A DNA stretch of 64,000 bases from the human T2T-CHM13v2.0 reference genome, Homo sapiens (GCF_009914755.1 NC_060936.1), one strand, 5' to 3'; shown: positions 23,423 to 64,000, counted from the stretch's first letter. Numbers and translations are program-made. The notes: generated from the sequence alone by a model not told the origin.

Positions 23423-23996
23423 GGTGCTAGCAGTGAGGGAAAGGTCAGAGTCCTCTTCTTCCTCTGGCTTCATGTCCTCCAGCAGAGAGTCGCCATGACT
23501 TGTAGATTGTCTTGCCTAGGCTCCCGAGCGGAGTCTGCAAATCCAGGTCCTGTGCAGCCACTCAGAGATATGGTTATGACCCCACCCTCAGCTGCATCTT
23601 GCCCTCCGGGCCCTGGTCTGGTGGCTGCTGCATCACGGCAAGCCCCTGCTACCATGGCCTCACTGGGGGCTTTGGCACTGGTTCCTGTGGACACAGATTC
23701 AGCTACCACTCTGGCAGCACATGCGGGCCCAGCACTGCCTGTAACACCATTGTGTTGATCAATGAGAGCCTCCTCATGCCCCTCAACCTGGAGATTGCAC
23801 AGTGCATAAAGCAGGAGGAGGAGAAGATCAAGTGCCTCAACAGCAGGTTTACTGCCTTCCTCCACAAGGTGGGTGTCCTGGATCACACCCTTCCTGAACC
23901 CCCACCATGTGCACAACCAGGACTGGGCACTGAGGAAAGAATCAGAGGCAGGCAAGACCCTGCGTGCCTGAGGTCCCAGTCTGATGGGAGAGGCAC

Positions 23997-24036
<40 letters not shown>
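23997..24036 (+). repeat. (ACAG)10 tetranucleotide microsatellite in KRT88P intron 1
   Basis: Perfect ACAG run; the paralogous site in KRT86 (about 62334-62382) and KRT81 is an interrupted AC/ACAG tract. Confidence 0.9.
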
Positions 24037-24037
<1 letters not shown>

Positions 24038-24624
24038 GGCACCCAAGGCCCAGAAATACTCTGACAGTTCAGATACGGAGAGCTTGTGGAGGAAAGATGC
24101 CAAATTTCAAAATTTCAATGAATTTAGTTTAAAGATCTTAGTTGGATTTTATATGCAATTTTAGAATTGGGCAGCCCTTAGAACTGATCAGAGGAACTCT
24201 GGCTGCACTGCGGTCCCACAATACTTATGGACAGAAAGCAGAAAGTGACACATGGAAAACAGAAGTAACAGCTGGATTGTTTGCAGCTGGTGTTTGTGAA
24301 CATTTGGCTGCCTGTGATTGACTGAAGCTCAGTTACTGTGATTGGCTGAGACTCAGCTATTTGTTACAAAGGAAAATTCTGAAGTTAGGTTTGTAAGGGA
24401 TAATTGGAAGGACAGCCGAGAAAGGAATAAGGCCAATAGACCCAAGTTCAGGCAAGCTGATTTACTGTCAGTCCTGCCGGGCTACCTCCTGACAAAAGCA
24501 GAGGAGGCAGCCCTGCTTATAGGCTATTGCAAGGTTTTATAGGGCATGTATTCCTAATTCCAACTAGGAATGTTGGAATTAGCAGTTTCTGGCCAAGGAT
24601 CTGAGGTACAGTTATTATAGGTTA

Positions 24625-25175
<551 letters not shown>

Positions 25176-25717
25176 TCATTTATTTTCTACTCCCCTAAAC
25201 TCTGACATAACTAAATGCTGCAAGGTTTTAATGCATTATGCCAAAGTATATTTTCACCAGGTAAAGGAAGCTTTTCAAGATCTATCAACTGAGGACAATC
25301 AAACCCTTCACAATCTAGAATGCAGAGATCAGGTCATCTGGAGACGATATCTGAGAAAGACTGCCATTGAGCCCCATTGGAGGGGGCCATATCAAGTTCT
25401 TCTCATCACCCACTCTTCAGCAAAACTTCAGGGCCTTGGACCTTCGGTCTACATCTCGCAACTCAAAAGGGTCCATTCAGACTCTTAGAACTGCACATCC
25501 ATTGGAGACCTTAAGATAAAGCCAAGCAGAGAAGTTTCTTCCCAGAAACAGACAGTATTCTAGATGTGGACAGCTTTCCCAAGACCATGGATCAAGACTT
25601 CTCTGCCGTCATGCAACTCTTACCTCTCTTAATTTTTTCCTTGCTTACGCCTTCCTCATTCACTTGGCAGGATAATGCTGTAATTCGAATTTCATAATCA
25701 GTAGCTTCTGAGAGTAA

Positions 25718-26024
25718 TTTTTTTTTTCTTTTTGAGACAGAGTCTCTATTGCCCAGGTTGGGGTGCAGTGGTGTGATCTTGGCTCACTGCAAACCTCTGT
25801 CTCCTGGGTTCAAGCAATTCTCATGCCTCAGCCTCCCAAGTAGCTGGGATTACTGGCATGCGCCAACACACTGGCTAATTTTTGTATTTTTTTTTTTTTT
25901 TTTTTGGTAGAGATGGGATTTCACCATGTTGGCCATGCTGGTCACAAACTCCTCACTGCAGGTGATCTGCCTGCCTCAGCCTCCCAAAGTGCTAAGATTA
26001 CAGGAGTAGGCCGCCATGCCCAAC
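25718..26024 (-). mobile_element. Alu SINE
   Basis: Antisense Alu; TSD CTTCTGAGAGTAA at 25705-25717 and 26025-26037. Confidence 0.94.
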
Positions 26025-28304
26025 CTTCTGAGAGTAACTTGACGGAGTGTTGTATCTGTCATGTCAAACTCAAATCTTTACATTACCTACAAAGTCCACC
26101 TATTGGCCAACTTCAGCAACATCCCTAATGCAACTATTTGTTCAAATTATAGCTATGTTCTCAACTTAAGTCACTGCCCCCACCTCTTGCAGGAGATCCA
26201 TGTTCTCCAATCCCACATCTCAGACACCTCTGTGGTTGTCAAGCTGGACAACAGCCAGGACCTGAACATGGACTGCATCATTGCCGAGATCAAGGCACAG
26301 TATGACGACATTGTCACCTGCAGCTGGGCCAAGGCTGAGTCTTGGTACCATGGCTGCCTGCCAGATGTGGCACCTGCCTGCTAGATGTGGCAGTTGGGAG
26401 GGCAGGATGTGAGATACCTATTAGATAGACTTATTTTGCCTGGGGATTCTGGATAGTAGGCCAATAGCTCTCAGGTTGGGGTGGCAGGGCAGGACTGCCA
26501 TGTGTGGTTGCACAGGCTGAGCACTGCACAACCTGCACAATCATCCCTAAAGGAAGGGATATCCCACACTGAGCCTCAGGAGCATCTCTGCTTCCCCCAT
26601 TTCGGGGAGATGAAGGCCACGGTGATCTGGCACGGGGAGACTGTGGGCTGCACCAAGGAGGAGATCAAGGAGCTGACCCACATGATCCAGAGGCTGATGG
26701 CCAAGGTGGAGAATGCCAAGTGCCAGGTATGGGGCATCTGTGCCCAAGGCCAGAGAGACTTATGGCTTAACCTTTGTCACACAGCCTATGTGTGCCCTAC
26801 GTGGATCTCAGCATTCATTCTCCAGTCCCTTTGTCCATGTAGAGTCCCTGGTTGTGGTCAGTCAGGGAGTGCCAGGATGATGAAGGCAAGAGGCCTGTTT
26901 CTGAGGTGCTCCCAGCTGAATGGCAGACTGGACATATCCAGGTAATGGACAGAGAGACCGTAACCTATCTTGTTCTCTTCTGGTCCCCCAGAACTCCAAG
27001 CTGGAGGTGGAGGTGACCCAGTCTGAGCAGCAGGGTGAGGTGGCCCTTAGCGATGACCGCTGCAAGCTGGTCGAGCTGGAGGGCACCATGCAGAAGGCCA
27101 GGCAGTACCAGGAGGTGATGAACTCCAAGCTGGGCCTCAATGTGAAGGCTGCCTCTTCTTGCCAACTTCTAGATGGTGAGGAGCAGAGGTGGGTGCAGCC
27201 TGCAGAGCTGGGCCCAGAGCTCATCTGCATAGACCTGCCCCACTTTTTAGCACCATCACTTACCCAGCCCTCACTACTACTTCTGTTTTCATCTTGGAAC
27301 CCTTTTAGGACCTCTACTGGTATTGAGCACAGTCCAAGGAGCGGAGTCTTAGTTGAGTCCACAGGCCGATTTCCAATAGGCTCCTTGCATGATCTATTAG
27401 GGACAATGGTTTGTCTCAGAGAACTTGTTCTCTGAGATAAACAATGCCCTAATTTATAACACTTACCGATTTCAGAGTTGTATATACTTCTGTCATGGCT
27501 GATTTCAGGCTGTTGCTGTGACTTCATGTAGAATTGGCTAGAAATGTGCACAATAGGCTCTTGTGAGCTGGTGGGAACTGGTTCAAGAACAACATTGGTT
27601 GGGGCTAGGATGGAATGGTGTCTCACACTGAAAGACAAATAGGAAGATATTTGTCTCTTCTCTTAGATGAAAAACCTGAGGCTTAGGGAGACTGTGGGGG
27701 TTGGGGAGTCCGCCTGGTGTGGAGTTATTGGGACAGTTGGAGAGTTCTTTTGTGTCCTGCTGCATTTTCACAGGCTCCACTTCCTGGGGGGATCTGGGAG
27801 AGCCTGGCACTTGTGTTGTTTTGGGACAGGGTTGGGACGATGCTGGGCCTTTGAGGGTGCTAGACCCAGGTCTTCCCTCCTCTCACTTTCTGGGAAGGGC
27901 TTGGGTGACCTCTTGGTTGACTGAGTTCAGAGCTGGTGACCACATGGTCTCTGGTGTCATTGTCAGGAATTAATGCCCAGTGCTAAAGCTGACCTTTTCT
28001 CTCCTGCACCAGGCTGTGTGATGGCATCAGTGCTGTGAATATCTGTGAGTAATTCTGGCCCTGAAGGGAGACTCTGAGGTTTGCCAGTGGGACGAATTTT
28101 TTAGCTCTGAGGGTGGAAATACCAAGGAAGTGGTTCCATTCATTTACAGCTGCACAGCTACAAAGAGGGAGCCAATTGACAAGTCTTGAGTGGAATCATT
28201 CCTTACGCCAGACTTGTCAGAGTGGCAGTCTTATTATCCTCACCATAGTGAAGGAACCAGAATGTGTCACCTCAAAATATGTATCTTTGACATAAATATA
28301 TATC

Positions 28305-30508: not shown

Positions 30509-31199
30509 TCAGGGTGTCAGTCCCTCGCACAGACTACAGGGAAGCAATGCCATCTTCACCCCTGGAGATGGAGGTGAGAAGAAGCCATCCTCCTGGCTGC
30601 TCCCAGCTGGTAGGAAGCCAGTGCTGATTGGAGGTGGGGCTTTTTGGGACCAGCTCCCACCCCGACCAAAGGGTTTAACTTCTTATGGCTGTCTCTGTGC
30701 AGGTGTGAGCAGCTCCTTGGTGGGGTTGCCTGTGGGGGCCTCTTGGCCACCTGCACCTGCGGCATCAGCTCCTGTGGGATGGGGCCTGTGGCAGCAGCTA
30801 CAGGAAGTGTTAAGTTGGCAGAGCTTGAGGATGCACCCAGCCCAGCCTCTCACCCTTGCGAGGGTCCCAGCTGGCCCTACCTGACCTTGTGCAGCCTGGT
30901 GGCAGGGCGCCACTGCTTGACCCACCCTGATCCACGTTGTCTGCTTCCCACTTCTTACTTCTTGTTGTGTGGGAATCTCTCTTCCTTGGCCCCTGCTGCC
31001 CTCAAGCTGAGAAAGGCTATTGAGAGGAGTGGCACGTAGCCCATGGGCATGTTCTGTTTGAGGATTCTGACCTGACTGAACCCACGAAGAGGATAGCCTC
31101 TCACCAACCATCTTTCAACCTTCCGCTTCCCTTGCTGTCTTGCTCTTCCCTTCCCTTCTCTGGTCTTCTTTTCCTCCTTGCTTCTTGCCTCCTTTAGAA

Positions 31200-34110
31200 G
31201 GCTAAAATTTAATAGACTGACAATACCAAGTGTGAATCAGCTGAAACTTTTGTGGAGTGTAAAATGATTGAGCAACTTTGGAAAACAGTTTGGCAATTTC
31301 TTATGAAGTTAAACATGCACTTATCAAATGATGCAGCAATTCCACTCCTGGGTATTTGCTCAAAAGAAATAAAAGCAGATCTATACAGAGACTTGTACAT
31401 GAATTTTATAGAAGCTTTATTTATAATAGCCCTAAATTGGAAACAACCCAAATGTGTACCAGCAGATGAATGGATAAACAAATTGAGATATAGTCATACA
31501 ATAAAATATAATTCAGCAACAAAAAATAATGAACTAGATTCATTCAGTGGTGATTAGATTGGAGCATACATCTGTCAAAATTTGTTGAACTGTACTTTTA
31601 GAATGTGTGCGCTTTATTGAGATACAATTGTATGCAAATTATATGTCAATTAAGTTGATAAAATAATGATTTAAAATGCATAAGATACTTAGAAATAAAT
31701 CTAACACATATGTGAAAGACTTACACCTAGAGAAATATAAGCGTTACACAAAATGTTATAGGAAAGAAAAGATAAAGAAGACATAATTAAATGAAGAGCT
31801 ATACCATGTTCTTAGATAGGAAGCTTTACTATCATGAATATGTTAATTATCCTTAGAGTGATCTACAGAGTTGACGCAACTACACTCAAATTCCAAATGA
31901 AGATTTACATAATTCTTGACAAGTTGATTCTAAAATTTATGGGGAAGAACAAAGGTCAAGAACAGCTAAGGAATGATGAGAAGGAAGAAATAGGTACTCT
32001 CTCTTTCAGGGATTATAATGTATTATAGAGTTATAGTAATTGAGAAAGTATAGTACCCACACAAAAATAGACAAACTGACCAATGGAACAAAATAGCCCC
32101 TAAATTTATTTATAAATAAGTAAATGATTTTGTTGTAAAATAGAAGTGGTATGGCAGATCAGTAGTGAAAAGGACTATGCATTGGTTAACCACATGTAAA
32201 AAATAAAATTAGATCCCTGTTTTCTCTTATACACAAAATCAGTTTCAAATTAATTTAAATTACAAATGTCAAAAGCAAAACTTTAAGAATTTTAGAAGAA
32301 AATATTGGAGAATATTTTTCTGACCTTGGTGTAGAGAAGGATTTTTAAACATGTCACATAAAATGCTCAACATAAAAGATTGATAAATTAGATTACATTA
32401 AAACTAACAACTTTATTTTTCAAAATAGGTGATAAAGTGAAAAGATAAGCTGTAAACTTGATAATATTTGTGATATATGTAAGTGATATAATAGTAATAC
32501 TCGGAAATATAAAGAACACTTATAATCCTTTAGAATACAGCAAAAACCCAATAGAAAAAAATGGACAAAAGAAAAGGAAATACACATGTAATAGACATTT
32601 AAAGAGATATTAAACTTTAACAGTAATCATGAAAATACAAAGCAAGACCAAAAATGAGATTGCATTATTTAATTGTTGAAAATTAAGACACATTAAAGAG
32701 GATACGAATCTTTTTCACATTGCTGAGCAAAGTGTGAATTGTTATAACAACTTTGGAAAATAATTTTATATTATCTTATAAAGTTAACACCTTTATAAGA
32801 TTCTGACCATCCTATGAGTCAGAAGTTCTGTTTGTAGTTGTATACAAATCCTCACATATGTGCATCGGAGGACATGTAGAAAAATGTTCATGGCACCACC
32901 TTTGTAAGAGAAAGAAACAAAACAAAACAGTAATAGAATTACCTAAAGTGTGGTATAGTTACACAATGGAATACTATAAGAATGGAATATTAATATTATA
33001 ATGGAGGAATACTAGCAACATAATGTTGAATAAAACAAGACCCTGTGTGACACGCTTTTTATAAAAAAAGAACAAAAAAACTGAAACAAATATATATTGA
33101 GGCATATGCATGTATTTGATAAAGCTAAGAAAAAACAAAGGAATTATATCAACTTTAGGGAAGTGGTTACCTCTGGGGTGGTTAGGAGAGGACAGGGTAG
33201 GGAAGGAGCATGGAGCTAAATGTAAATTACTAGTAAGATTTTAGTTTTGGGATCAGTAAGTAGGTTCATGAGTATTTCATTTTCATTATATTATAATAAT
33301 AAAGTAATATGCTAGTTATAAGAAATAAACTTAAAACATGAGGACATAAGTTGAAAGTAAAAGAATGTGTTAAGGTGATTGGTTAGATCAGATTGCTTAC
33401 ACATAGTAGAAGTAAATGATTTTTCCATGAAACTTATTTCAGTAGATGTGGTGTATTTGTACGTAGGTAGTGATTCATGATACAACATATATTTCTTATT
33501 TAGAGTTGAGGTTAAAAAACAGTTTGACAACTAGTACCCCAAAGAACCTCTTGTTGAGGTCCACCAGCAGATATGTACAAGAAAGTTCATGGCAGCATTG
33601 TTTGTTACAACAAAAACAAAAAACACATGTGCTACCTATAGGAAAATAGAGATATATGTATATGTGTGTGTCTATATCTGTATCTATCTATATATATGTA
33701 GTCATACTTTGGAATACTATACAACACTGAGAAATAAAACTACATGCATCAAAAAGATGAATCTCAAAACTAGTATGTTGAGGAGGAAAAAGCAAGTCAT
33801 AGAAATGTACAAGGTGTAATTCTATTTATATAAAACTTAAAGGTAGGCAAAACTCAACACTAGTTTATGGATACACGTATGACATAGCAATAAAGAAAAG
33901 CAAGGGAATGACCAATATAAAAACTCAGGACAGTGGTTACTTTGGGGATCAGATGGGGTTAGAGATGGATCAGCAAAAATCCCGCAGGGGGCTTTGAAGG
34001 TACTGGTGGGTACACAAGGATTTGTTTTATTATTGTTGCTATTGAAATCAATAAATGTAGGTTTTGCATACTCTTTTGCATATATGAGAAATTTATAAAA
34101 CAAAAAGAAA
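31200..34110 (+). mobile_element. Block of old, fragmented L1 (L1M-type) sequence
   Basis: A-rich with decayed ORF2 C-terminal translations (LWKTVWQFLMKLNMHLSNDAAIPLLGI; ILDKLILKF); boundaries approximate. Confidence 0.75.
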
Positions 34111-34635
34111 ATGCTGACCACAGCTTGTGCTCTCTAGCCCCTACTCATTCCTACAGGTTAAAGTCATTGCCCTACCCAAGATTTCCTACCAAGTCTTGGG
34201 ACTGGCATCCCCAGTCCCAATTTCTTGCCCTCCTGTCAATCTTCTGCACTGCTTCTAGACAATCACATCTCATGTCAGGCCACTGTCCTGCTCAGACACC
34301 CTCTGTGGCTCCCCAGTGCCCATCCATAAGCCTAAGCTCCTCAGCTCCACACATTTCCTCCACCTGAGGTAGCCTTCCCCTCCTCCACTTTCCTTTAAGT
34401 TCCACTTCAGCCCAGAAACTTCCATTTTCCCACCTGGGGTCAGAGTATGGCCCTCTTCTACCCTATGCCCCTGAGGCCTCCTGGGCAGAACTCTGTGATT
34501 GTAATGAGATGAGGTCACAGAGCCCCCAGGAAGAAGAGGCCCTAGTCCTCAGTGGCAAGGATTCTGGTAGCTCTTGGGCTGAAGCTGGGCTTTGGTGCTC
34601 AAGAGAGGCTTGGAGGAGACCACAGTTCTTTCTCC

Positions 34636-37600
34636 ATGGTGAGACTCATACACGTGGCTCCCTGGTCACACAGGGATGAGGTGTCTTGGACTTCACCCAG
34701 ATCTGTTGGGCATACAGCTTTTGGGAACAGGAGCAGAAAAGTTGGGGGCAGTGGGAACACAGCAGAAATTGAGATGATGTTTTGAGGTCTGTTCCCCCAC
34801 ACTCCATCTGCCCTAGAAGAAAGTTTGCAATGGGCTGGTGTGAACAGTTCTTGCTCTCTGGGTTGAGGGGGTGTGTATAACCTTGGTGGAGAGCAAAGAG
34901 CATGGGCTTAAAATGTAGTCTGGCTCAACTGTCGGCTGGCAGGGTCACTCACTCCCCTCTTGCACGTGGTGGATGGAATGAGCCCCAGTTTGCCTGAGGA
35001 AAGACAATGGGAAAAGTCACATCCATCTGGCCAACTTCATGGGTGGTTGTGAGGCCCCAGTGAGATCGTGGAGTAAAAGCTTGTGAAAAGCATCAGGCAC
35101 TGTGCAAGTGTGAGTTATTGTTCCCTGGCTATTCGTGTATTGAATGCACATGGGGGCGAGGTGCAAGAAGGGAAGTGGTCCCCTGATTTCATAGACAGCA
35201 CTTCCCATAGCAGCCTTGGGTTTGGGGAAGAAGCTGGAATCTAGATCACTGTCCCTGGTTTCTGATTAATGGCATTCAAATTAAGGACATTTCTTCCTAA
35301 TCCTAGATTTTAAAATGTGTTTTTTAAATTAGGAAATATTGAATTTCATTAATTTTTTTGTACTAATTTAAATGGTTAGATGTTGTAAACTACAATAATC
35401 AGTTTCCTAGAGTTTAACTCTCCCTGTTCCTGGGATAAACCCTATGTGATCTTGGTCCCAAAGCTCCCCTCAACAGATCACTGCCCTGTGTTGCTGCCCT
35501 TCCTGCCTGAGTTCAGGCTTCCTTTGGCATCTTCTGGCCCCATGGGCACAAGGCAAGCTCACTGTGTTCTTTCAACAACCTTTGGAGATAGGAAAAATGA
35601 TCACTCCCATTTCACAGATGGAGAAAGGGATGCCCAGAGAAGCTAGGTGACCACTGGTGACAGCAGGTGGATGGGCAGCCCTGTCTGGCCTCCTCACCTC
35701 CTGACTACAGCTCCCCTCTGCCGTCTGCTCCACAGTGTGAGGAATTAAAGGCAACTGTGCAGAAACACACGCAGAGCCTGAAGCCCAGCAAGGAGGATCT
35801 GAACAGGCTTAATCAGGCCATCCAGTGGCTGACGGTGGAGGTGGGCAGTGCTGAGAGTCAGGTGAGAGGTGGGAGTGGGGGGCAACAGAGTGGCCATGGT
35901 GGGATGGTGACCATTATTTATGACAACTGCCCCTCCCCACCTACCCTTTGGATTAGATGGCTACACTTTCTCTTAGTGAATGTCTAAGCATACAGCAGTG
36001 CAGCTGCATGCATATATCATGCTTACCTCTGCCTAGGACATTGTGTATTTTATGTAAGTAATGAACATGTAGGTAAATCTGTATGAAGATATATGCTTGT
36101 TTGTACATTATTATCTTTTTACTTGTGTATGTTCATTTTTATGTCTGTGTTTTGTTTTTCTCGCTCAGTATTACATTTGAGCCCATCTTCAGAAATTGCA
36201 AGATATTACCTAGAAACCCAGTTTTCTGGGTTCTATTTCAAAATGTGAAGATCTGGCAATGTTAAATTATGATTCTCAAATGGCAACATTTGGCTAGAGG
36301 AGAGAGGCCTCTATCATCTCTCTCTTCTTCACATGCGGTATAGGCTGCCTGGTGTGCCGCAGTCCCCACCACTCCCAATCCCATCCTTTGGATGTGAGGC
36401 AGAGGGTCCCTTGCCATTTATCACTGTCCTGGCTGCAAGTTATTATCCTTGTAGAAGAGAAAAGGTGCTGAGTCAATGTCGCTAGAGAAATGCAAGTCTG
36501 AAAATATAAAAGAGGTGCTGGTGATTTCAGGAAATGGGAGAGGGCAGATGTATTTGTGGAACTGGGTACTCCTGATGTATATTTAGCCTTCACCTTTTGA
36601 TGCTTCCAGCTAGGCCTCTGCAAGCACTTGCATTTGTGAGCCTTAGAAAGGAGCTAGTCCTCCAGGATGTTTTCTTTCTCCCATTCTCTCTTAGCCTCCT
36701 CTCTTAACCCACCCACCTCCCAGCCCTCTCACACCCCCGCTGGCTCAAGTCTCACTCCATGGAGGGAAGGGCTTCTGTTCCCGGTCTTTTCTTGCTTTCT
36801 GCAGATGCAAGTGTCTCAGGCTTGGAAGGGTATTCATGGAGAGAGATCTCCCTTGTACAGGAATGGGTGACTCTGAGAAGGGATAAGCTGCTGAGGTTCT
36901 GAGGGGGCAGAGTGAGTGGGTGGGCCATCATGGTCAGGGTCCCACCAGCCACAGCTGTTCTGGTTCCCCAAGCAGCAAATACACTTCACCAAGGTCTTAT
37001 TATTTTTCCTCCTGAAGAGTATAAACTCTAGGTTCCCGTGAGGAATGGATATTCTTCTTGCTAGTTTTCCTTAGGAAACAATAACCACAGCATTACATGC
37101 CAAAGAGCATTGGATGCTTCTGGGATCCTGGCTCATATTAGGAGTTTCTCCATACTAGACGTAAAAGGCTCTCTCTCAGCCATCCTAGATAGCCGGTTTC
37201 AAATCTTCACCCTGAAGGTAGACAGGTGGGCAGGTTCTTTTCATCTTGCCATACAGACAAACAAACACAAGTTTTGGAACAGGTGTGCTCACTCCTTGCA
37301 ACCATGGACAATCTCCAATCCCTCATTGGCTCTGCAGCCTCAGAGCAAGGTCTGGATCCTTAAGGGGGAAGGAGTGAGGGCCAATAATGTCCTTCTGTCC
37401 TTGGTCTACCCTTCGCTCCCTACGCCCTGTGAACTAGAGGAAGTCAAGGACCCGCCAGCTCTGCAGGAGGAGGGTGGCTCTGGCAGCACCAAGGGCAAGC
37501 TGGCTTGGCTGGAGGCTGCCCTGCAGCGAGCTAAGCAGGATGTGATGTAGCAGCTGTGTGAGTACTGAGAGCTGTGATCGTCAAGTGGGGCCTGGACTTT

Positions 37601-39443
37601 GAGATTGCTGCCTGCCACAAGCTGCTGGAGGGTGAAGAGAGTGGATGATGGGTCAGCTGGGAAGTGCTTCAGATGTGGCTGCAGTGAGGAGTGCAGGGGC
37701 ACAGGGCAGCACCACGCTCATCAGCCAGGGAAGGGTGGAGAGAGATGACCTAGGTATCCAGGAACTCGTTCCTCTAGAGCTAGGTTTCTCTCACCATCTT
37801 ACAGCCCTTTGAACAAAAAGTTCTAGCTGATGTGTACTTTTGGCACCTGGGACGGGGTGACCCATAGTCATCCACCCCAGTATCAGAGACCAGGGGCCGG
37901 TTTGTCCATGGAGACAGCTGCAGGGACCAAGGCCTAGCCAGTGGGAATAAGGTCTCTGTGTGAAGTGCCTTCTTCTCAACTCTGCCCCTCTCCCCAGGCC
38001 TGGGGAAGGTGGGGTTACATGACCAGGTGGGGCTTGGCTTTCAACTCAGTAGACAACAGTAGGAGACAAGGGCTGTCACCAGGCTAGGGGAGGGAGGGGG
38101 AACTGATCACCCATGCCACAGGCATATTGCATTGATCACCTCCTTTAACACCTCACAAAACCCTGGCAGGGAGGTCCTATTATCCCCATTTTACAGATGA
38201 GGGGTAAGTTTCAGAGAGGTTAAGTGACAGCTTTAGGGACACACACTAGTCTTCAGATTATGGAGCTACCTGCTCTGGGGTCTCCTGTAGAGGTTTAAAA
38301 TGTTCCCTCACGGTCTCACCTTCCAAGATCAAGTCAGGCCAAAGAAAGTGTAGTTTTTTTTTTTTTTTTTTTTTGGTCTTCTCTTTCCTCCAAAAAGTCA
38401 TCAACAAAAGTGAGTTATATGAATTTAAGGCAGGAGTGATCAGAGAGCGCCAGGGAGCTTGCAGGGTGGAAGGACTGCTGTCTGGGAGGGTCAGGAGTGT
38501 GTGTCCTGGGGAATGCAGAATACCAAACCTAGTAGACAGATGGACTCACCTGCTTCCTTCTTTCCGCTGGCTTGGTCTGGGATTTGGGGCAAGGAGCATC
38601 AGTAAGTAAACAGTAGGCTGGCATGGTCGGATCTTATCTTATTATCTTATTCTCCTTATTCCCTCCTTCCCCGTCCACACCTTGGCGTGCCTCCTCTTGA
38701 GAAGGCAGAAGGGCTGTGTTTCTGTTCCTGTGTCTGTGACAGCTCCCTCTGTGCCTCTCCTTTTGTCGCGGGCTATTTCTTCTCTCGGGAGTGACTGCGT
38801 TTGCGTGTGTGGGGAAGGGGGTCCTGTGGTCTGTTCTCTGGGGAGAGGTCTGTTTACCTGTTCCTTTCGGGGAGTTTGTACATCTGTCTCCTGGTGGGGA
38901 GGAGGGTCTGTGTATCTGGAGGAGATGTCTGCAAGTCTGTCTTCTGGGGCTTGGGGTGGGGGGAGGAAGGGCTTTCCTCCCTCGGACAGTCGTCCTCCGT
39001 TCAGCCGGGCTCCGCCTGCCTGCTCCAGCCCCGAGCAGGCTCCGGCGCCCTGGAGACGAGCGCCCCTGGCGGCGGCTACGCGCTCTGCGGCTCTCCCGGC
39101 TGTGTCCGTGGGCTTTAGCTACACAGCTCCCGCAGATGTTGAACCCTTCCCGCCTCCCTCCGGAGAAGACAAGGAACCCTCAGCTTCTGCCCTAAAGACT
39201 TAGCCCTCTTGTGTCAGATGCCCCCTCCCATAGAGCTGACCCCACATCATCTTTCCTTTTTGCCTCCCACACCGGGACGTGAGGCGTTGGAGCACAGCTT
39301 ACAGGACTATGACTGACCATCCCCAGTGCAGATGGCCTGGACGCTGGTGCCATTGGGTAGAGGTGGCCAGCTTACCTGGACCAAGAACCCTGACCCTCTG
39401 AACTGTTCCCACCCCTTCTTTCCAGGGACTTCTCTGCAATAAA
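34636..39443 (+). pseudogene. Orphan 3'-half type II keratin remnant (exons 6-9 plus a candidate ATG-ending first exon)
   Basis: ATG|gtgaga at 34636-34644; intact exon 6 homologue 35736-35861 (CEELKATVQKHTQSLKPSKEDLNRLNQAIQWLTVEVGSAESQ); exon 7 homologue about 37424-37643 ([16 protein letters not shown], stops at 37548 and 37566, degenerate GLDFEIAACHKLLEGEE); 32-bp exon 8 homologue 38570-38601|gtaagt; GC-rich tail-like segment about 38990-39120; AATAAA 39438-39443. Confidence 0.72.
39438..39443 (+). terminator. PolyA signal of the orphan keratin remnant
   Basis: AATAAA followed by GT-rich sequence (GTTGTGGAGTGGTCT) about 320 bp after the tail-like segment. Confidence 0.5.
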
Positions 39444-41628
39444 AAGTTGTGGAGTGGTCTGAGCTGCCAGGAGTTTAAACCCGGATTCTCCAGGCCATTC
39501 CCAGAGCACAGACAAACCTGGCTGCGGTGGAGGGGTCAGGGCGAGAACAGTACCAGGAAGCAACCTCCTCCCCTCCTGCTGTGAGGGTCTATGTGACTTA
39601 AGTATATGATGATTCGATATTATAGAACCAGAGTCTTTAGGATGGGGAGCCCGGAGTCCATGGGGAAAGCGAGAGAAAGGGTTCATTCATGCAGAAGAGT
39701 CTAGCCTGGGGCCCATAGCTTCTGGGCAGCAGAGCTGAGAATTCCATTCTCCATCCATCCATTCACTCTACACATACTTACTGAATGGCCTCATAGTGCT
39801 TGGTTCAGGGGACAGGATGGTGAGGAAGACACTCTAGGATTCCTGGAGATGAGGTTCTGGGTAGGGAGGTGGGCCATAGACGAGGAAACCGAGCAGAAAC
39901 AGAAAAGGGTGAGATGGGGATTGGGCCAGTGCCTTCTATCACCCTGATGGGGCATTTGAAGACAGGTGGCCCTTGCAGATGGGGGCTGGAGAGAGATGAA
40001 CACAATTGGGTGGCCCAAGCTTGGGTTCTGGTTTAACACACAATTGGGCCACCGAGTTGTGTTAATATGATCTGGTGGCGGGCAGAGGAACAACACACTA
40101 TGGTGGAGGAAATTGTGGGCTGTGAAATCAGACGGAGGCTCCAGCTCTGTCTCTACTTCAGATCCAGGGTGTAAGTTGGTCCGAGTTTTTACAAGGCATT
40201 GGACTTTGGTGGTCGGAAGATAGAGTGGGGTGGCTAGATAAAGGCTGGATTTCTGGGTTCTTTCCCTGCCACACAGACCCAAGAGAAGCTTCTGTACAGT
40301 GAGCCCACATTCCTTTCTATTGCATGAAATTACATCATCAATGCAACAATAGTTTCTGCTTTCTATGTCCCTGGGTGGGGCTGAAGTGCGTCATTGGCCA
40401 GAGGCTTGGGCTTTACTTTTTAAGGCACTCTAGTGCCAGAGTGTCTGCTGTGTTCTTCTGGGTGCCTGCCCAGAGGACAGGTATCCAAAAGGCCCTCTTC
40501 TTGTGTAAACAGAAAAGTCTCATGCAAGAGGAATGGGACTGAAACTTGGCTAGCCGGATGCCACCCTCCTGAGGGGTAGGGGGCATGACCCCACTGGGCT
40601 CACACATCAGCCCTGGTTGATAAATACTGACCTGCCAACACTCGCAAATGCAAACAAGCTGCCTGAAGATTCTTTCAAGATTCTTTAGTCCAGCTCTGTG
40701 CTCCTTGCATTTTGCTAGGGGATCATGAGATTCTCTGCTATTCAAGCCCAATTTTCTCCAGCTCCTGCTATGATGATCATGTCAACAAGGGAACTTTGTG
40801 GGAATTGTAGGCAGGATCTAGGATGTACATTCTGCAACCTGCGTCACTCAGGACTGTTGCTCACATTTTCCCTTTTCAAATACCGAACCTGGACTTGCCT
40901 GATGTCAATCCAGAAGATCCCCAGGGCTTTGGGGTCAGGTTTGAGTTTCTTCCTGGGCCAGGGCCCTGTGGATCACAAGCAATGTTTGTGGTTTGGAGAC
41001 TAATTCCCTGAGAGGCTCCCCTGGCCATGGGCCACATTCCAGACTGGGGTGGGAGGAAACTGCCCAGTGCATTTATGGAGAGTCATTCCCCAGCCCATTT
41101 ATAAGCTTTGTGAGTCGGGTGGCTTCTGAAGGGAGGAGGGCTGTCCTCAGTTCAGTCATTGCTTCTCAGCAGAAGGGCACTATAAGGTGTGAGTCCTCTG
41201 TTGGCTCTGCATGCCTGCCTCACACTCCGTTGTATTTAAACATGTCAGATGCTAACTTGGCTGTGGTCATGTCTCTATCTGAGCCCCAGGAGGGCAGTGA
41301 AGGTCTCATCCATCCTCAGGGTCTGCCACAGAGTAGATGTGATGGGGTTGAGGCTGCATGGTCCTGGTTGGTGTGTCCTGTCCTGAGATGTATTGGGCCC
41401 TGTTTTTGACCATTGGCATGTGGCATTCTGCATAACCCCTTGGAAGTCTCTTGTGGAGTCTAAATGCAGTCCTTCCTGCTGTGATTTCAGCTGTAAGAGA
41501 TCAACCAGACCAGCCTGGAGTAAGGAAGGAAGGGCCTTGATCCTGTTCCCAGTCTTATTCTTACCTTGTCCAAACTCTTCACCTGTTTCTGGGCCTCAGT
41601 CCTGCCCTCCTCTAGATCTAAATTGTGA

Positions 41629-46173: not shown

Positions 46174-51463
<5,290 letters not shown>

Positions 51464-61479: not shown

Positions 61480-64000
<2,521 letters not shown>

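What the first reader, a model, noticed from the sequence alone, without database searches (positions are those of the whole stretch)
34636..39443. Orphan half-keratin gene: exons 6-9 only, with a candidate first exon ending exactly in ATG
Seen: a 126-bp exon 6 homologue with perfect cacag|...|gtgaga ends and an open frame, a dead exon 7 homologue, a 32-bp exon 8 homologue with a gtaagt donor, a tail-like segment and AATAAA. I found no exon 1-5 homologues between KRT88P exon 9 and this unit. About 1.1 kb upstream, ATG|GTGAGA (34636-34644) would place a Met in phase 0 on the exon (MCEELKATVQKHTQSL...). Inference: this was not a broken full keratin but a deliberately short coil-2-plus-tail keratin gene. 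It is far more diverged from KRT81/86 than KRT87P or KRT88P are, so it is old. I recall that mouse has a short testis-expressed keratin-like gene (Krt88) at a similar position; unverified.
Basis: partly seen in the sequence, partly recalled or inferred. Interest (0 to 1): 0.75.

Follow-up and report, generated by a model that had tools for sequence, protein, structure and literature searches.

The report
Dead human copy of mini-keratin Krt88
This stretch is the decayed human copy of a short keratin gene (called Krt88 in mouse) that other placental mammals keep intact, and its first two exons now serve as the untranslated leader of the hair keratin gene KRT86.

Summary
Its main inference also holds.

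- **A gene built short:** the unit is a five-exon gene. Exon 1 ends exactly in ATG, followed by homologues of keratin exons 6-9.
- **Intact relatives:** database searches returned predicted proteins of about 150-225 aa from many placental mammals. They include horse, elephant, manatee, tamandua, bats, carnivores, ruminants and rodents. 57 of the 121 examined start MCE.
- **The mouse name:** one source labels the mouse-type member "Keratin 88".
- **Dog model:** the curated dog KRT88 model has the same odd layout, with only 3 coding bases in exon 1.
- **Dead in human:** the human copy has two stops and a 1-bp deletion in the exon-7 homologue. It has also lost three splice dinucleotides and carries a frameshift and an early stop in the tail exon.
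- **When it decayed:** substitutions at conserved positions shared with colobus, marmoset and squirrel monkey place the relaxation in the anthropoid stem.
- **Reuse:** exons 1-2 survive as the 5'UTR of KRT86 NM_001320198.2. There the old start codon is the first AUG and opens a 199-codon ORF out of frame with KRT86.
- **Not KRT88P:** the annotated human KRT88P is a different, full-type pseudogene upstream.

Expression, dN/dS and any function were not tested.

The parts
34561..34638 (+). Exon 1 of the short-keratin relic. It is non-coding except for its last three bases, ATG at 34636-34638, and has a GTGAGA donor. RefSeq annotates it as exon 1 of KRT86 NM_001320198.2, and a longer form 34211-34638 occurs in another transcript.
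   Evidence: and the hub's RefSeq table. The dog curated model has 3 coding bases in exon 1. 57 of 121 listed relatives start MCE.
35736..35861 (+). Exon 2, a homologue of type II keratin exon 6. It is 126 bp with an AG acceptor and a GTGAGA donor, and is open for 42 codons. A second donor, GAG|GTGGGC, lies after 105 nt and matches the 105-nt form seen in mouse-type, dog and tamandua proteins. RefSeq annotates it as exon 2 of the KRT86 5'UTR.
   Evidence: Identity to the short keratins is 88% (colobus), 81% (horse) and 66% (Mus-type Keratin 88), against 52-62% for these three proteins at the KRT81 exon 6. Pfam PF00038 positions 199-238.
37425..37644 (+). Exon 3 relic, a homologue of keratin exon 7. 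It is 220 bp where relatives have 221. Lesions are acceptor CG, TAG at 37548, TGA at 37566, a 1-bp deletion near 37574-37576, and donor AT. The rod-end motif is degraded (EIAACHKLLEGEE, where relatives have [13 protein letters not shown]).
   Evidence: comparison with the relatives.
38570..38601 (+). Exon 4 relic, a homologue of keratin exon 8. It is 32 bp with a GTAAGT donor. The acceptor is TG instead of AG. It encodes GLGFGARSIS, against a consensus of LGLGFGAGS.
38990..39460 (+). Exon 5 relic, the tail plus 3'UTR. It has an AG acceptor and a second acceptor 15 nt downstream. The conserved tail motif lies in a different frame from the exon's start, so there is a frameshift at about 39020-39040. 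TAG at 39116 falls eight codons before the position of the ancestral stop (39140-39142). AATAAA is at 39438-39443. The 3' end at about 39460 is inferred. The coding part is CpG-rich, and the first exon of KRT86-AS2 (38858-39073, minus strand) starts inside it.
   Evidence: and the hub's table for KRT86-AS2.
61836..62208 (+). KRT86 coding exon 1 as entered from the relic. The acceptor ...ccccaaaaag|CACC lies 4 nt before the KRT86 ATG at 61840. The relic's ATG therefore reads this exon out of frame.
   Evidence: and the hub's RefSeq table.

Best explanation
Positions 34561 to about 39460 (+) hold the human orthologue of a short type II keratin gene that is conserved across placental mammals. It is called Krt88 in mouse, KRT88 (LOC608165) in dog and RGD1305207 in the hamster record (Phodopus roborovskii).

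**The gene in other mammals.** It has five exons. A leader exon contributes only its terminal ATG. Then come homologues of keratin exons 6, 7, 8 and 9. The protein is about 155-195 aa and corresponds to the last third of the keratin rod plus a Gly/Pro/Cys-rich tail. It lacks the head, coil 1 and the start of coil 2.

**The human copy.** It is a unitary pseudogene. The exon-7, exon-8 and exon-9 homologues carry stops, frameshifts and lost splice sites. Shared substitutions at otherwise conserved positions in colobus, marmoset and squirrel monkey show that constraint was already relaxed in the anthropoid stem.

**Reuse of the 5' end.** Exons 1 and 2 are intact as spliced exons. In RefSeq they splice from 35861 across the whole of KRT81 to an acceptor 4 nt before the KRT86 start codon. 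They form the 5'UTR of NM_001320198.2.

**Consequence (inferred).** In that mRNA the ancestral start codon is the first AUG. It sits in a weak context (T at -3, T at +4) and opens a 199-codon ORF that overlaps the KRT86 AUG out of frame. KRT86 translation from this isoform should therefore depend on leaky scanning.

**Shown versus inferred.**
- Shown here: the anatomy, the lesions, the family relationship, and the separateness from the annotated KRT88P.
- Inferred: that the live orthologues are translated and pair through their C-terminal helix with keratin partners, and that the uORF affects KRT86 output.
For: **Relatives**
- The exon-6 peptide search gave 9 proteins at E<=0.001 among 12 candidates. 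Most are short models starting MCEE.
- The profile search gave 620 hits, of which the best 120 were listed. They are named from all four placental superorders and include "Keratin 88" of Mus spicilegus at 171 aa.
- 57 of 121 start MCE and 64 of 121 share the Cys-rich C-terminal end.
- The alignment of 38 clean members shows a near-invariant second helix and rod-end motif.

**Placement in the window**
- tblastn of six members against the window puts their best matches for exon 6 and the tail at the relic. The conserved tail motif matches nowhere else.
- In the tree the short-keratin clade of 19 rows has 100/100 support. Human relic, colobus and marmoset group at 100/99. KRT88P exon 6 falls in the KRT81/KRT87P clade, together with the sheep full-length protein and the upstream part of the walrus model.

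**Gene structure**
- Dog curated model: exon 1 CDS of 3 bp, exons of 105/221/32 bp and a 101-bp terminal CDS, with introns of 1559/1494/950/447 bp. The human introns are 1097/1563/925/388 bp.
- The horse has a separate nine-exon KRT88 of 483 aa as well as the short gene (P0007).

**Lesions and relaxation**
- Lesions.
- At 65 columns conserved in at least 90% of 34 non-primate rows, mismatches are human 12, colobus 11, marmoset 14, Saimiri 15 and Otolemur 4. Non-primates score 0-8 in leave-one-out.

**Protein anatomy**
- Pfam PF00038 matches profile positions 199-313 of 313 only.
- The horse protein aligns without gaps to the crystallised K5 2B fragment 3TNU_B, E 6.9e-27.
- AlphaFold2 gives helix 3-41, a low-confidence linker at 42-64, helix 65-118 (pLDDT 95-98 over residues 71-110) and a disordered tail.

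**Leader**
- In the NM_001320198.2 leader the only ATG before the KRT86 start is this one. Its context is TTCTCCATGT, against AGCACCATGA for KRT86, and its ORF runs 199 codons.
Against: - **Only models:** the orthologues are gene models, not proteins seen by experiment.
- **Dog caveat:** Balmer et al. flagged the dog model as low RNA-seq coverage, possibly wrong or a pseudogene.
- **Mouse expression:** one mouse study reports no Krt88 expression in ear skin (PMC12941220, passage).
- **No dN/dS:** I had no orthologous DNA, so selection is inferred only from retained ORFs and the conservation pattern.
- **Varied starts:** 64 of the 121 proteins do not start MCE. Many have other predicted first exons or are fused models, such as sheep P0124, walrus P0123 and ferret P0131.
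- **Marmoset and colobus:** these models already look damaged or oddly spliced, so their "intact" state is doubtful.
- **Parent unresolved:** the tree does not show which full-length keratin was the parent.
- **Weak chance argument:** preservation of the exon-2 frame in human is not significant (P about 0.08).
- **Leader untested:** no RNA-seq, CAGE or ribosome data were available. Use of the distal leader rests on the RefSeq table alone, and the uORF effect is inference.
Confidence: 0.85

Rival explanations
1. The unit is the detached 3' half of the annotated KRT88P. On this view one full-length hair keratin pseudogene was split by insertions or a rearrangement.
For: It has the same strand as KRT88P and lies directly downstream of it. 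KRT88P exon 1 is about as diverged from KRT81 (69-75%) as the relic is (69-70%). The Saimiri model P0008 joins a KRT88P-like exon 1 to the relic's exons.
Against: KRT88P has its own homologues of exons 5, 6, 7, 8 and 9, at 26190-28046 and 30731-30810. KRT88P exon 6 falls in the KRT81/KRT87P clade, far from the short-keratin clade. The horse has both a nine-exon KRT88 and the short gene. Many relatives start at the ATG-terminal exon.
Confidence: 0.04
2. The "short keratin" is not a real protein-coding gene in any species. On this view the models are annotation artefacts on conserved non-coding exons, for example leader exons of Krt86 or a lncRNA.
For: All the evidence is predicted models. Dog RNA-seq coverage was low and its curators doubted the model. 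No expression was seen in mouse ear skin. I found no functional paper. The middle of the retained coil has lost its helical character.
Against: An ORF of about 170-190 codons with the same start, exon phases and C-terminal Cys motif is retained from Afrotheria and Xenarthra to rodents. Conservation is highest in the second helix and the rod-end motif. That is a protein-level pattern, and it relaxes only in anthropoids, where stops also appear. Balmer et al.'s supplementary file 9 lists a mouse RefSeq mRNA, NM_025487.3, as Krt88.
Confidence: 0.08
3. The human unit still makes a functional short protein. One route would be the 43 ancestral codons read from the KRT86 leader. Another would be alternative splicing around the lesions.
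For: Exons 1-2 are intact and spliced. The ATG is the first AUG of NM_001320198.2.
Against: After 43 codons the ORF runs into KRT86 out of frame. Exon 7 has two stops, a frameshift and no canonical splice sites. The exon 8 acceptor is lost, and the tail is frameshifted and truncated. The start context is weak.
Confidence: 0.03

Closest known systems
Mouse Krt88 and its orthologues (dog KRT88/LOC608165, RGD1305207 in the hamster record)
   Same: It has the same five-exon plan, with an ATG-terminal exon followed by homologues of keratin exons 6-9. The MCEE start, tail motif and clade match. The position relative to KRT87P and KRT86 matches that in dog.
   Different: The human copy has at least eight disabling lesions, and its exons 1-2 are annotated as KRT86 5'UTR. 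The mouse gene's position and expression were not checked here.
Human KRT88P (formerly KRT122P; listed with phi-hHbC/Kb30P in Schweizer et al. 2006, PMC2064177, passages)
   Same: Both are type II hair-type keratin pseudogenes on the same strand, about 7.6 kb apart between KRT88P's annotated end and the relic's exon 2. Balmer et al.'s supplementary file 9 lists the mouse symbol Krt88 beside KRT88P.
   Different: KRT88P is a separate, full-type relic with homologues of exons 1, 5, 6, 7, 8 and 9. Its exons 5-6 are about 91-92% identical to KRT81, and it sits in another clade. Its horse counterpart is a nine-exon gene of 483 aa.
Crystallised keratin 2B fragments (K5/K14 3TNU, K1/K10 4ZRY)
   Same: The live orthologues align colinearly and without gaps to exactly this stretch of the rod, including the rod-end motif. 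The second helix is predicted with pLDDT of 95-98 over residues 71-110.
   Different: About 20 residues in the middle are Pro/Gly-rich and predicted non-helical. No type I partner was tested.
Pseudogene exons reused as the 5'UTR of a neighbouring gene, carrying an overlapping upstream ORF
   Same: The relic's promoter-proximal exons form the leader of KRT86 NM_001320198.2. The old start codon is an upstream AUG that overlaps the main AUG out of frame.
   Different: That the leader or its uAUG has any regulatory effect is not shown. The proximal KRT86 promoter, with its TATA box near 61729, also exists (and the hub's table).

Membership tests
Krt88-type short keratin orthogroup | The first exon contributes only its terminal ATG, and the protein starts M-C-E-E | tested here: met
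   Human ATG 34636-34638|GTGAGA joins TGT GAG GAA at 35736. The dog exon 1 CDS is 3 bp. 57 of 121 relatives start MCE.
Krt88-type short keratin orthogroup | Exon sizes of 126 (or 105), 221 and 32 nt plus a tail exon, with keratin exon phases | tested here: met
   Human sizes are 126 (alternative donor at 105), 220 (1-bp deletion), 32 and a tail exon. Dog sizes are 105/221/32/101+330.
Krt88-type short keratin orthogroup | A conserved tail motif (..SAPGGGCALCGS..) and a Cys-rich C-terminus | tested here: met
   The human tail reads ..LETSAPGGGYALCGSPGC.. at about 39059-39103. It matches only this place in the window. It is cut short by TAG at 39116.
Krt88-type short keratin orthogroup | Groups with the short keratins rather than with full-length keratins in a tree | tested here: met
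   The clade of 19 rows has 100/100 support. The human relic groups with colobus and marmoset at 100/99.
Krt88-type short keratin orthogroup | Syntenic position downstream of the KRT88-type gene and upstream of KRT81/KRT86 | tested here: inconclusive
   Dog coordinates place LOC608165 between KRT87P and KRT86, in KRT86's orientation. The sheep and walrus fused models imply adjacency to a full-length gene. No mouse or other genomic DNA was available.
Type II keratin / intermediate filament protein (Pfam PF00038) | A complete central rod (coils 1A, 1B and 2) with conserved motifs at both ends | tested here: not met
   Only profile positions 199-313 of 313 are matched in horse, elephant and Mus-type proteins. 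No exon 1-5 homologue lies upstream in human. The family is a fragment-type derivative, not a full IF protein.
Type II keratin / intermediate filament protein (Pfam PF00038) | The rod-end consensus ([13 protein letters not shown]) | tested here: met
   It is nearly invariant in the live orthologues. In human it is degraded to EIAACHKLLEGEE.
Unitary pseudogene | Disabling lesions in the species, intact orthologues elsewhere, and no intact copy of the same gene in the species | tested here: inconclusive
   The lesions are shown. The intact orthologues are models. Only this 64-kb window was searched for a second human copy, not the whole genome.
HGNC KRT88P locus | Lies within the annotated KRT88P span and is derived from the same gene | tested here: not met
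   The KRT88P span is 23425-28144 (hub's table). It has its own exon 5-9 homologues and falls in a different clade.
Regulatory upstream ORF of KRT86 | The uAUG is translated and changes output from the main ORF | not testable with these tools
   Only the sequence facts are shown: it is the first AUG, has a weak context, and opens a 199-codon out-of-frame overlap.

The most novel reading that the evidence does not exclude
Krt88 encodes a real "mini-keratin" made of the rod end plus a tail. It docks onto the coil-2B ends of partner keratins and tunes or caps filament assembly in a specialised tissue. The anthropoid lineage lost it. The human relic was then retained as a distal promoter and leader whose ancestral start codon acts as an overlapping uORF that throttles KRT86 translation.
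Probability: 0.12. Interest if true: 0.7.

Novelty: new member of a known kind. Interest (0 to 1): 0.5.

Why it matters
- **Origin of an unexplained annotation:** the first two exons of the selected KRT86 transcript, which carry its only upstream AUG, turn out to be the remains of a lost keratin gene.
- **A naming problem:** one number covers two different genes. The mouse and dog "Krt88/KRT88" are the short gene. The horse "KRT88" and human "KRT88P" are a full-type gene. Orthology tables and comparative expression work in the type II keratin cluster can therefore be misled.
- **An unstudied gene:** the analysis points to a conserved, essentially uncharacterised truncated keratin that can be tested in mouse.
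- **Variant interpretation:** KRT86 is a monilethrix gene according to a passage of PMC8733776. Variants in 34561-35861 lie in its annotated 5'UTR and uORF.

Tried and rejected
**Readings tested and rejected**
- **Detached 3' half of KRT88P.** Rejected, because KRT88P has its own exon 5-9 homologues, including a C-terminal relic at 30731-30810, and falls in a different clade.
- **Epithelial-keratin relic.** At DNA level KRT7 is closer to KRT81 than the relic is, which suggested this origin. Rejected, because by my own hand count over the 42 exon-6 residues the relic shares 22 with KRT81 and 13 with KRT7, using the translations printed. The CEE.KATV start is also the one seen in KRT81 and in the Hb5-like hair keratins printed.

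**Searches that gave less than hoped**
- **A full-length ancestor.** The profile search restricted to longer proteins returned only fused gene models (sheep, walrus, ferret) and ordinary keratins at 44-62% identity. No full-length orthologue and no marsupial member appeared. Only the best 120 of 1546 hits were listed, so this is weak evidence.
- **The parent keratin.** The tree left the attachment point of the short clade unresolved.
- **Literature on Krt88.** The search for "Krt88" found 6 papers, 5 of them listed. I saw passages from all 5, and none describes function or the short structure. The search for 1700011A15Rik, RGD1305207, "keratin 88" and NM_025487 found 2 papers. I read a passage of one of them. 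They mention only 1700011A15Rik, an alias I recalled from memory and could not tie to Krt88, so I make no use of them.
- **Other paper checks.** The two supplementary files held for PMC8733776 do not mention Krt88. The search for "unitary pseudogene" with keratin and mouse found nothing about this locus. Only one of its papers was opened.

**Not attempted**
- dN/dS, synteny in mouse, and the dating of lesions in apes, because no mammalian DNA other than this window was available.
- A complex prediction. None was run.


Full report
**Observation**

- ATG at 34636-34638 is followed by GTGAGA.
- The 126-bp exon at 35736-35861 has an AG acceptor and a GTGAGA donor. It is open for 42 codons in phase 0.
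- AATAAA is at 39438-39443.
- blastn with the nine KRT81 exons finds the exon-6 and exon-7 homologues at 68.8% and 69.8% identity. KRT87P scores 98% on the same two exons, and KRT88P scores 79-92%.
- Neither that search nor a permissive tblastn with the KRT81 protein (E up to 10) finds any exon 1-5 homologue between 30810 and 35733.
- The hub's RefSeq table shows that 34561-34638 and 35736-35861 are exons 1 and 2 of KRT86 NM_001320198.2.

**What it is**

The exon-6 peptide was searched against the large protein collection, restricted to longer proteins.
- It gave 9 proteins at E<=0.001 among 12 candidates.
- They include short models of 156-195 aa in horse, chinchilla and marmoset that begin MCEE.
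- One hit, P0002, is the window's own ORF.

A profile of four of these proteins found 620 proteins at E<=1e-5. The best 120 were listed.
- They are almost all 120-250 aa and carry only the filament domain.
- Their sources name elephant, manatee, tamandua, bats, carnivores, ruminants, pig, rabbit, many rodents, tree shrew and bushbaby.
- UniRef calls the Mus spicilegus (171 aa) and Nannospalax members "Keratin 88". The record from the hamster Phodopus roborovskii is named RGD1305207.
- Of the 121 proteins in hand (all but P0002), 57 start MCE and 64 end in the same Cys-rich C-terminus.

Independent support comes from Balmer et al. 2017 (PMC5573215). I saw passages, supplementary search rows and supplementary file 8 part 18.
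- Their curated dog KRT88 (LOC608165) has exon 1 with 79 nt of UTR and 3 nt of CDS. Exons of 105, 221 and 32 nt follow, and the last exon has 101 nt of CDS. The protein is 153 aa.
- It lies between KRT87P and KRT86, in KRT86's orientation.
- Human intron sizes of 1097/1563/925/388 bp resemble the dog's 1559/1494/950/447 bp.
- The authors themselves flagged the dog model as low-coverage and possibly wrong or a pseudogene.

**Placement of the human sequence**

- tblastn of six family members against the window puts their best exon-6 match at the relic: colobus 88%, horse 81%, Mus-type 66%. It also puts their only tail match there.
- In a maximum-likelihood tree of the exon 6-7 region, 41 rows were built and 116 columns kept. 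The 19 short-keratin rows form a clade with 100/100 support.
- In that tree the human relic groups with colobus and marmoset at 100/99.
- Human KRT88P exon 6 falls elsewhere. It sits in the KRT81/KRT87P clade, together with a sheep full-length protein and the upstream part of a walrus fused model.
- KRT88P also has its own exon 5, 6, 7, 8 and 9 homologues. The last is at 30731-30810, beyond its annotated end.
- Balmer et al. list the horse KRT88 as a nine-exon gene of 483 aa. The horse also has the short gene (P0007).

Two different genes therefore share the number 88. The human relic is the orthologue of the short one, and it has no name of its own. Schweizer et al. 2006 list eight type II pseudogenes, four of them hair keratin pseudogenes, and give no separate entry for a short or partial relic (PMC2064177, passages). 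VGNC says its keratin curation largely followed Balmer et al. (PMC10176861, passage).

**State of the human copy**

- **Exon-7 homologue (37425-37644):** 220 bp. It has TAG at 37548, TGA at 37566 and a 1-bp deletion near 37574-37576. CG and AT stand where the acceptor AG and donor GT should be.
- **Exon-8 homologue (38570-38601):** it keeps its GTAAGT donor but has TG at the acceptor.
- **Tail exon (from 38990):** the conserved tail motif lies in a different frame from the exon's start. TAG at 39116 comes eight codons before the ancestral stop position.
- **Relaxed constraint:** 65 rod columns are conserved in at least 90% of 34 non-primate members. Mismatches there are human 12, colobus 11, marmoset 14, squirrel monkey 15 and bushbaby 4. 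Non-primates score 0-8 in leave-one-out.
- **Timing:** several changes are shared by all four anthropoids (H>P, A>G, M>V, R>C, R>H). Relaxation therefore began before the catarrhine-platyrrhine split. This rests on predicted proteins, not on DNA.

**The protein in other mammals**

- Pfam matches only positions 199-313 of the 313-position filament profile.
- The horse protein aligns without gaps to the crystallised K5 2B fragment of 3TNU, E 6.9e-27.
- AlphaFold2 was run with 35 aligned members. Mean pLDDT is 66. It gives helix 3-41, a low-confidence linker at 42-64, a confident helix at 65-118 and a disordered tail.
- The linker is Pro/Gly-rich yet conserved, so the retained coil is interrupted.
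- I infer that the second helix, with its near-invariant rod-end motif, is the working part and pairs with other keratin coils. A protein lacking the head and coil 1 cannot build filaments alone, so a modulating or capping role is the most likely one. None of this was tested.

**What the relic does now in human**

- RefSeq splices exon 2 (donor at 35861) to an acceptor at 61836. That acceptor lies 4 nt before the KRT86 ATG and behind a pyrimidine tract. The splice skips KRT81 on the other strand.
- In that mRNA the only ATG upstream of the KRT86 start is the ancestral one. Its context is TTCTCCATGT, against AGCACCATGA for KRT86.
- It opens a 199-codon ORF: the Met, then 42 ancestral codons, then KRT86 read out of frame.
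- I infer leaky scanning with some cost to KRT86 translation from this isoform.
- The alternative exon form 35665-35861 instead gives short upstream ORFs of 28 and 25 codons.
- That exon 2 escaped lesions is not significant (P about 0.08). Only its splice sites need to have been kept.

**Limits**

- No mammalian DNA other than this window was available. There is no dN/dS, no direct synteny for mouse, and no dating of lesions in apes.
- No expression data were available.
- One mouse paper reports no Krt88 expression in ear skin (PMC12941220, passage).
- The search for longer relatives found only fused models and ordinary keratins. The parent gene and the presence or absence of the family in marsupials stay open.

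**Verdict**

- the human unit is dead;
- it is distinct from KRT88P;
- its 5' end is reused by KRT86.

It is a new, unnamed member of a known kind (a unitary pseudogene with reused exons), and it belongs to a conserved but unstudied short-keratin family.

Noticed in passing
window 47903-48067 (KRT81 exon 5, minus strand): In this assembly the KRT81 reading frame stops after 281 codons (..IAEIKAQ*), within exon 5 by position in the spliced mRNA (located by my arithmetic, not by a call). KRT88P and other keratins have a Tyr at this position. This fits the table's "transcribed_pseudogene" label for KRT81 here.
   Followed up: partly
window 30662-30810 (+): A relic of the KRT88P tail exon lies about 2.6 kb beyond the annotated end of KRT88P (28144), behind repeat-masked DNA. 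Its C-terminus reads GACGSSYRKC, against [10 protein letters not shown] in KRT81. No homologues of exons 2-4 of KRT88P were detected.
   Followed up: partly
window 38858-39073 (-) and 38990-39142 (+): The first exon of the lncRNA KRT86-AS2 starts inside the CpG-rich tail exon of the relic (GC 0.71, 17 CpG in 153 bp, observed/expected 0.89). Its second exon (32655-34993) overlaps the relic's exon 1 on the other strand.
   Followed up: no
P0124 (sheep hybrid), P0123 (walrus), P0131 (ferret), P0008 (Saimiri): Public gene models fuse the short keratin to neighbouring genes: to a full-length hair keratin, to the last exons of one, to KRT7, or to a KRT88P-like exon 1. This is either read-through splicing into the strong exon-2 acceptor or a prediction artefact.
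   Followed up: partly
PMC5573215 supplementary files 4 and 10: The dog "KRT88" mRNA in file 4 begins with an epithelial-type head sequence. File 10 lists KRT88 as 525 aa and 92% identical to KRT71. Neither agrees with the 153-aa, five-exon model in file 8, so the label looks misapplied in those files.
   Followed up: no
window 38354-38376: A run of about 23 T lies in the intron between the exon-7 and exon-8 homologues.
   Followed up: no
PMC13429804: A 2026 hepatocellular carcinoma paper treats "KRT88" as a human prognostic gene and docks a drug to its "protein product". No intact human KRT88 protein is supported by this window (passages only).
   Followed up: no
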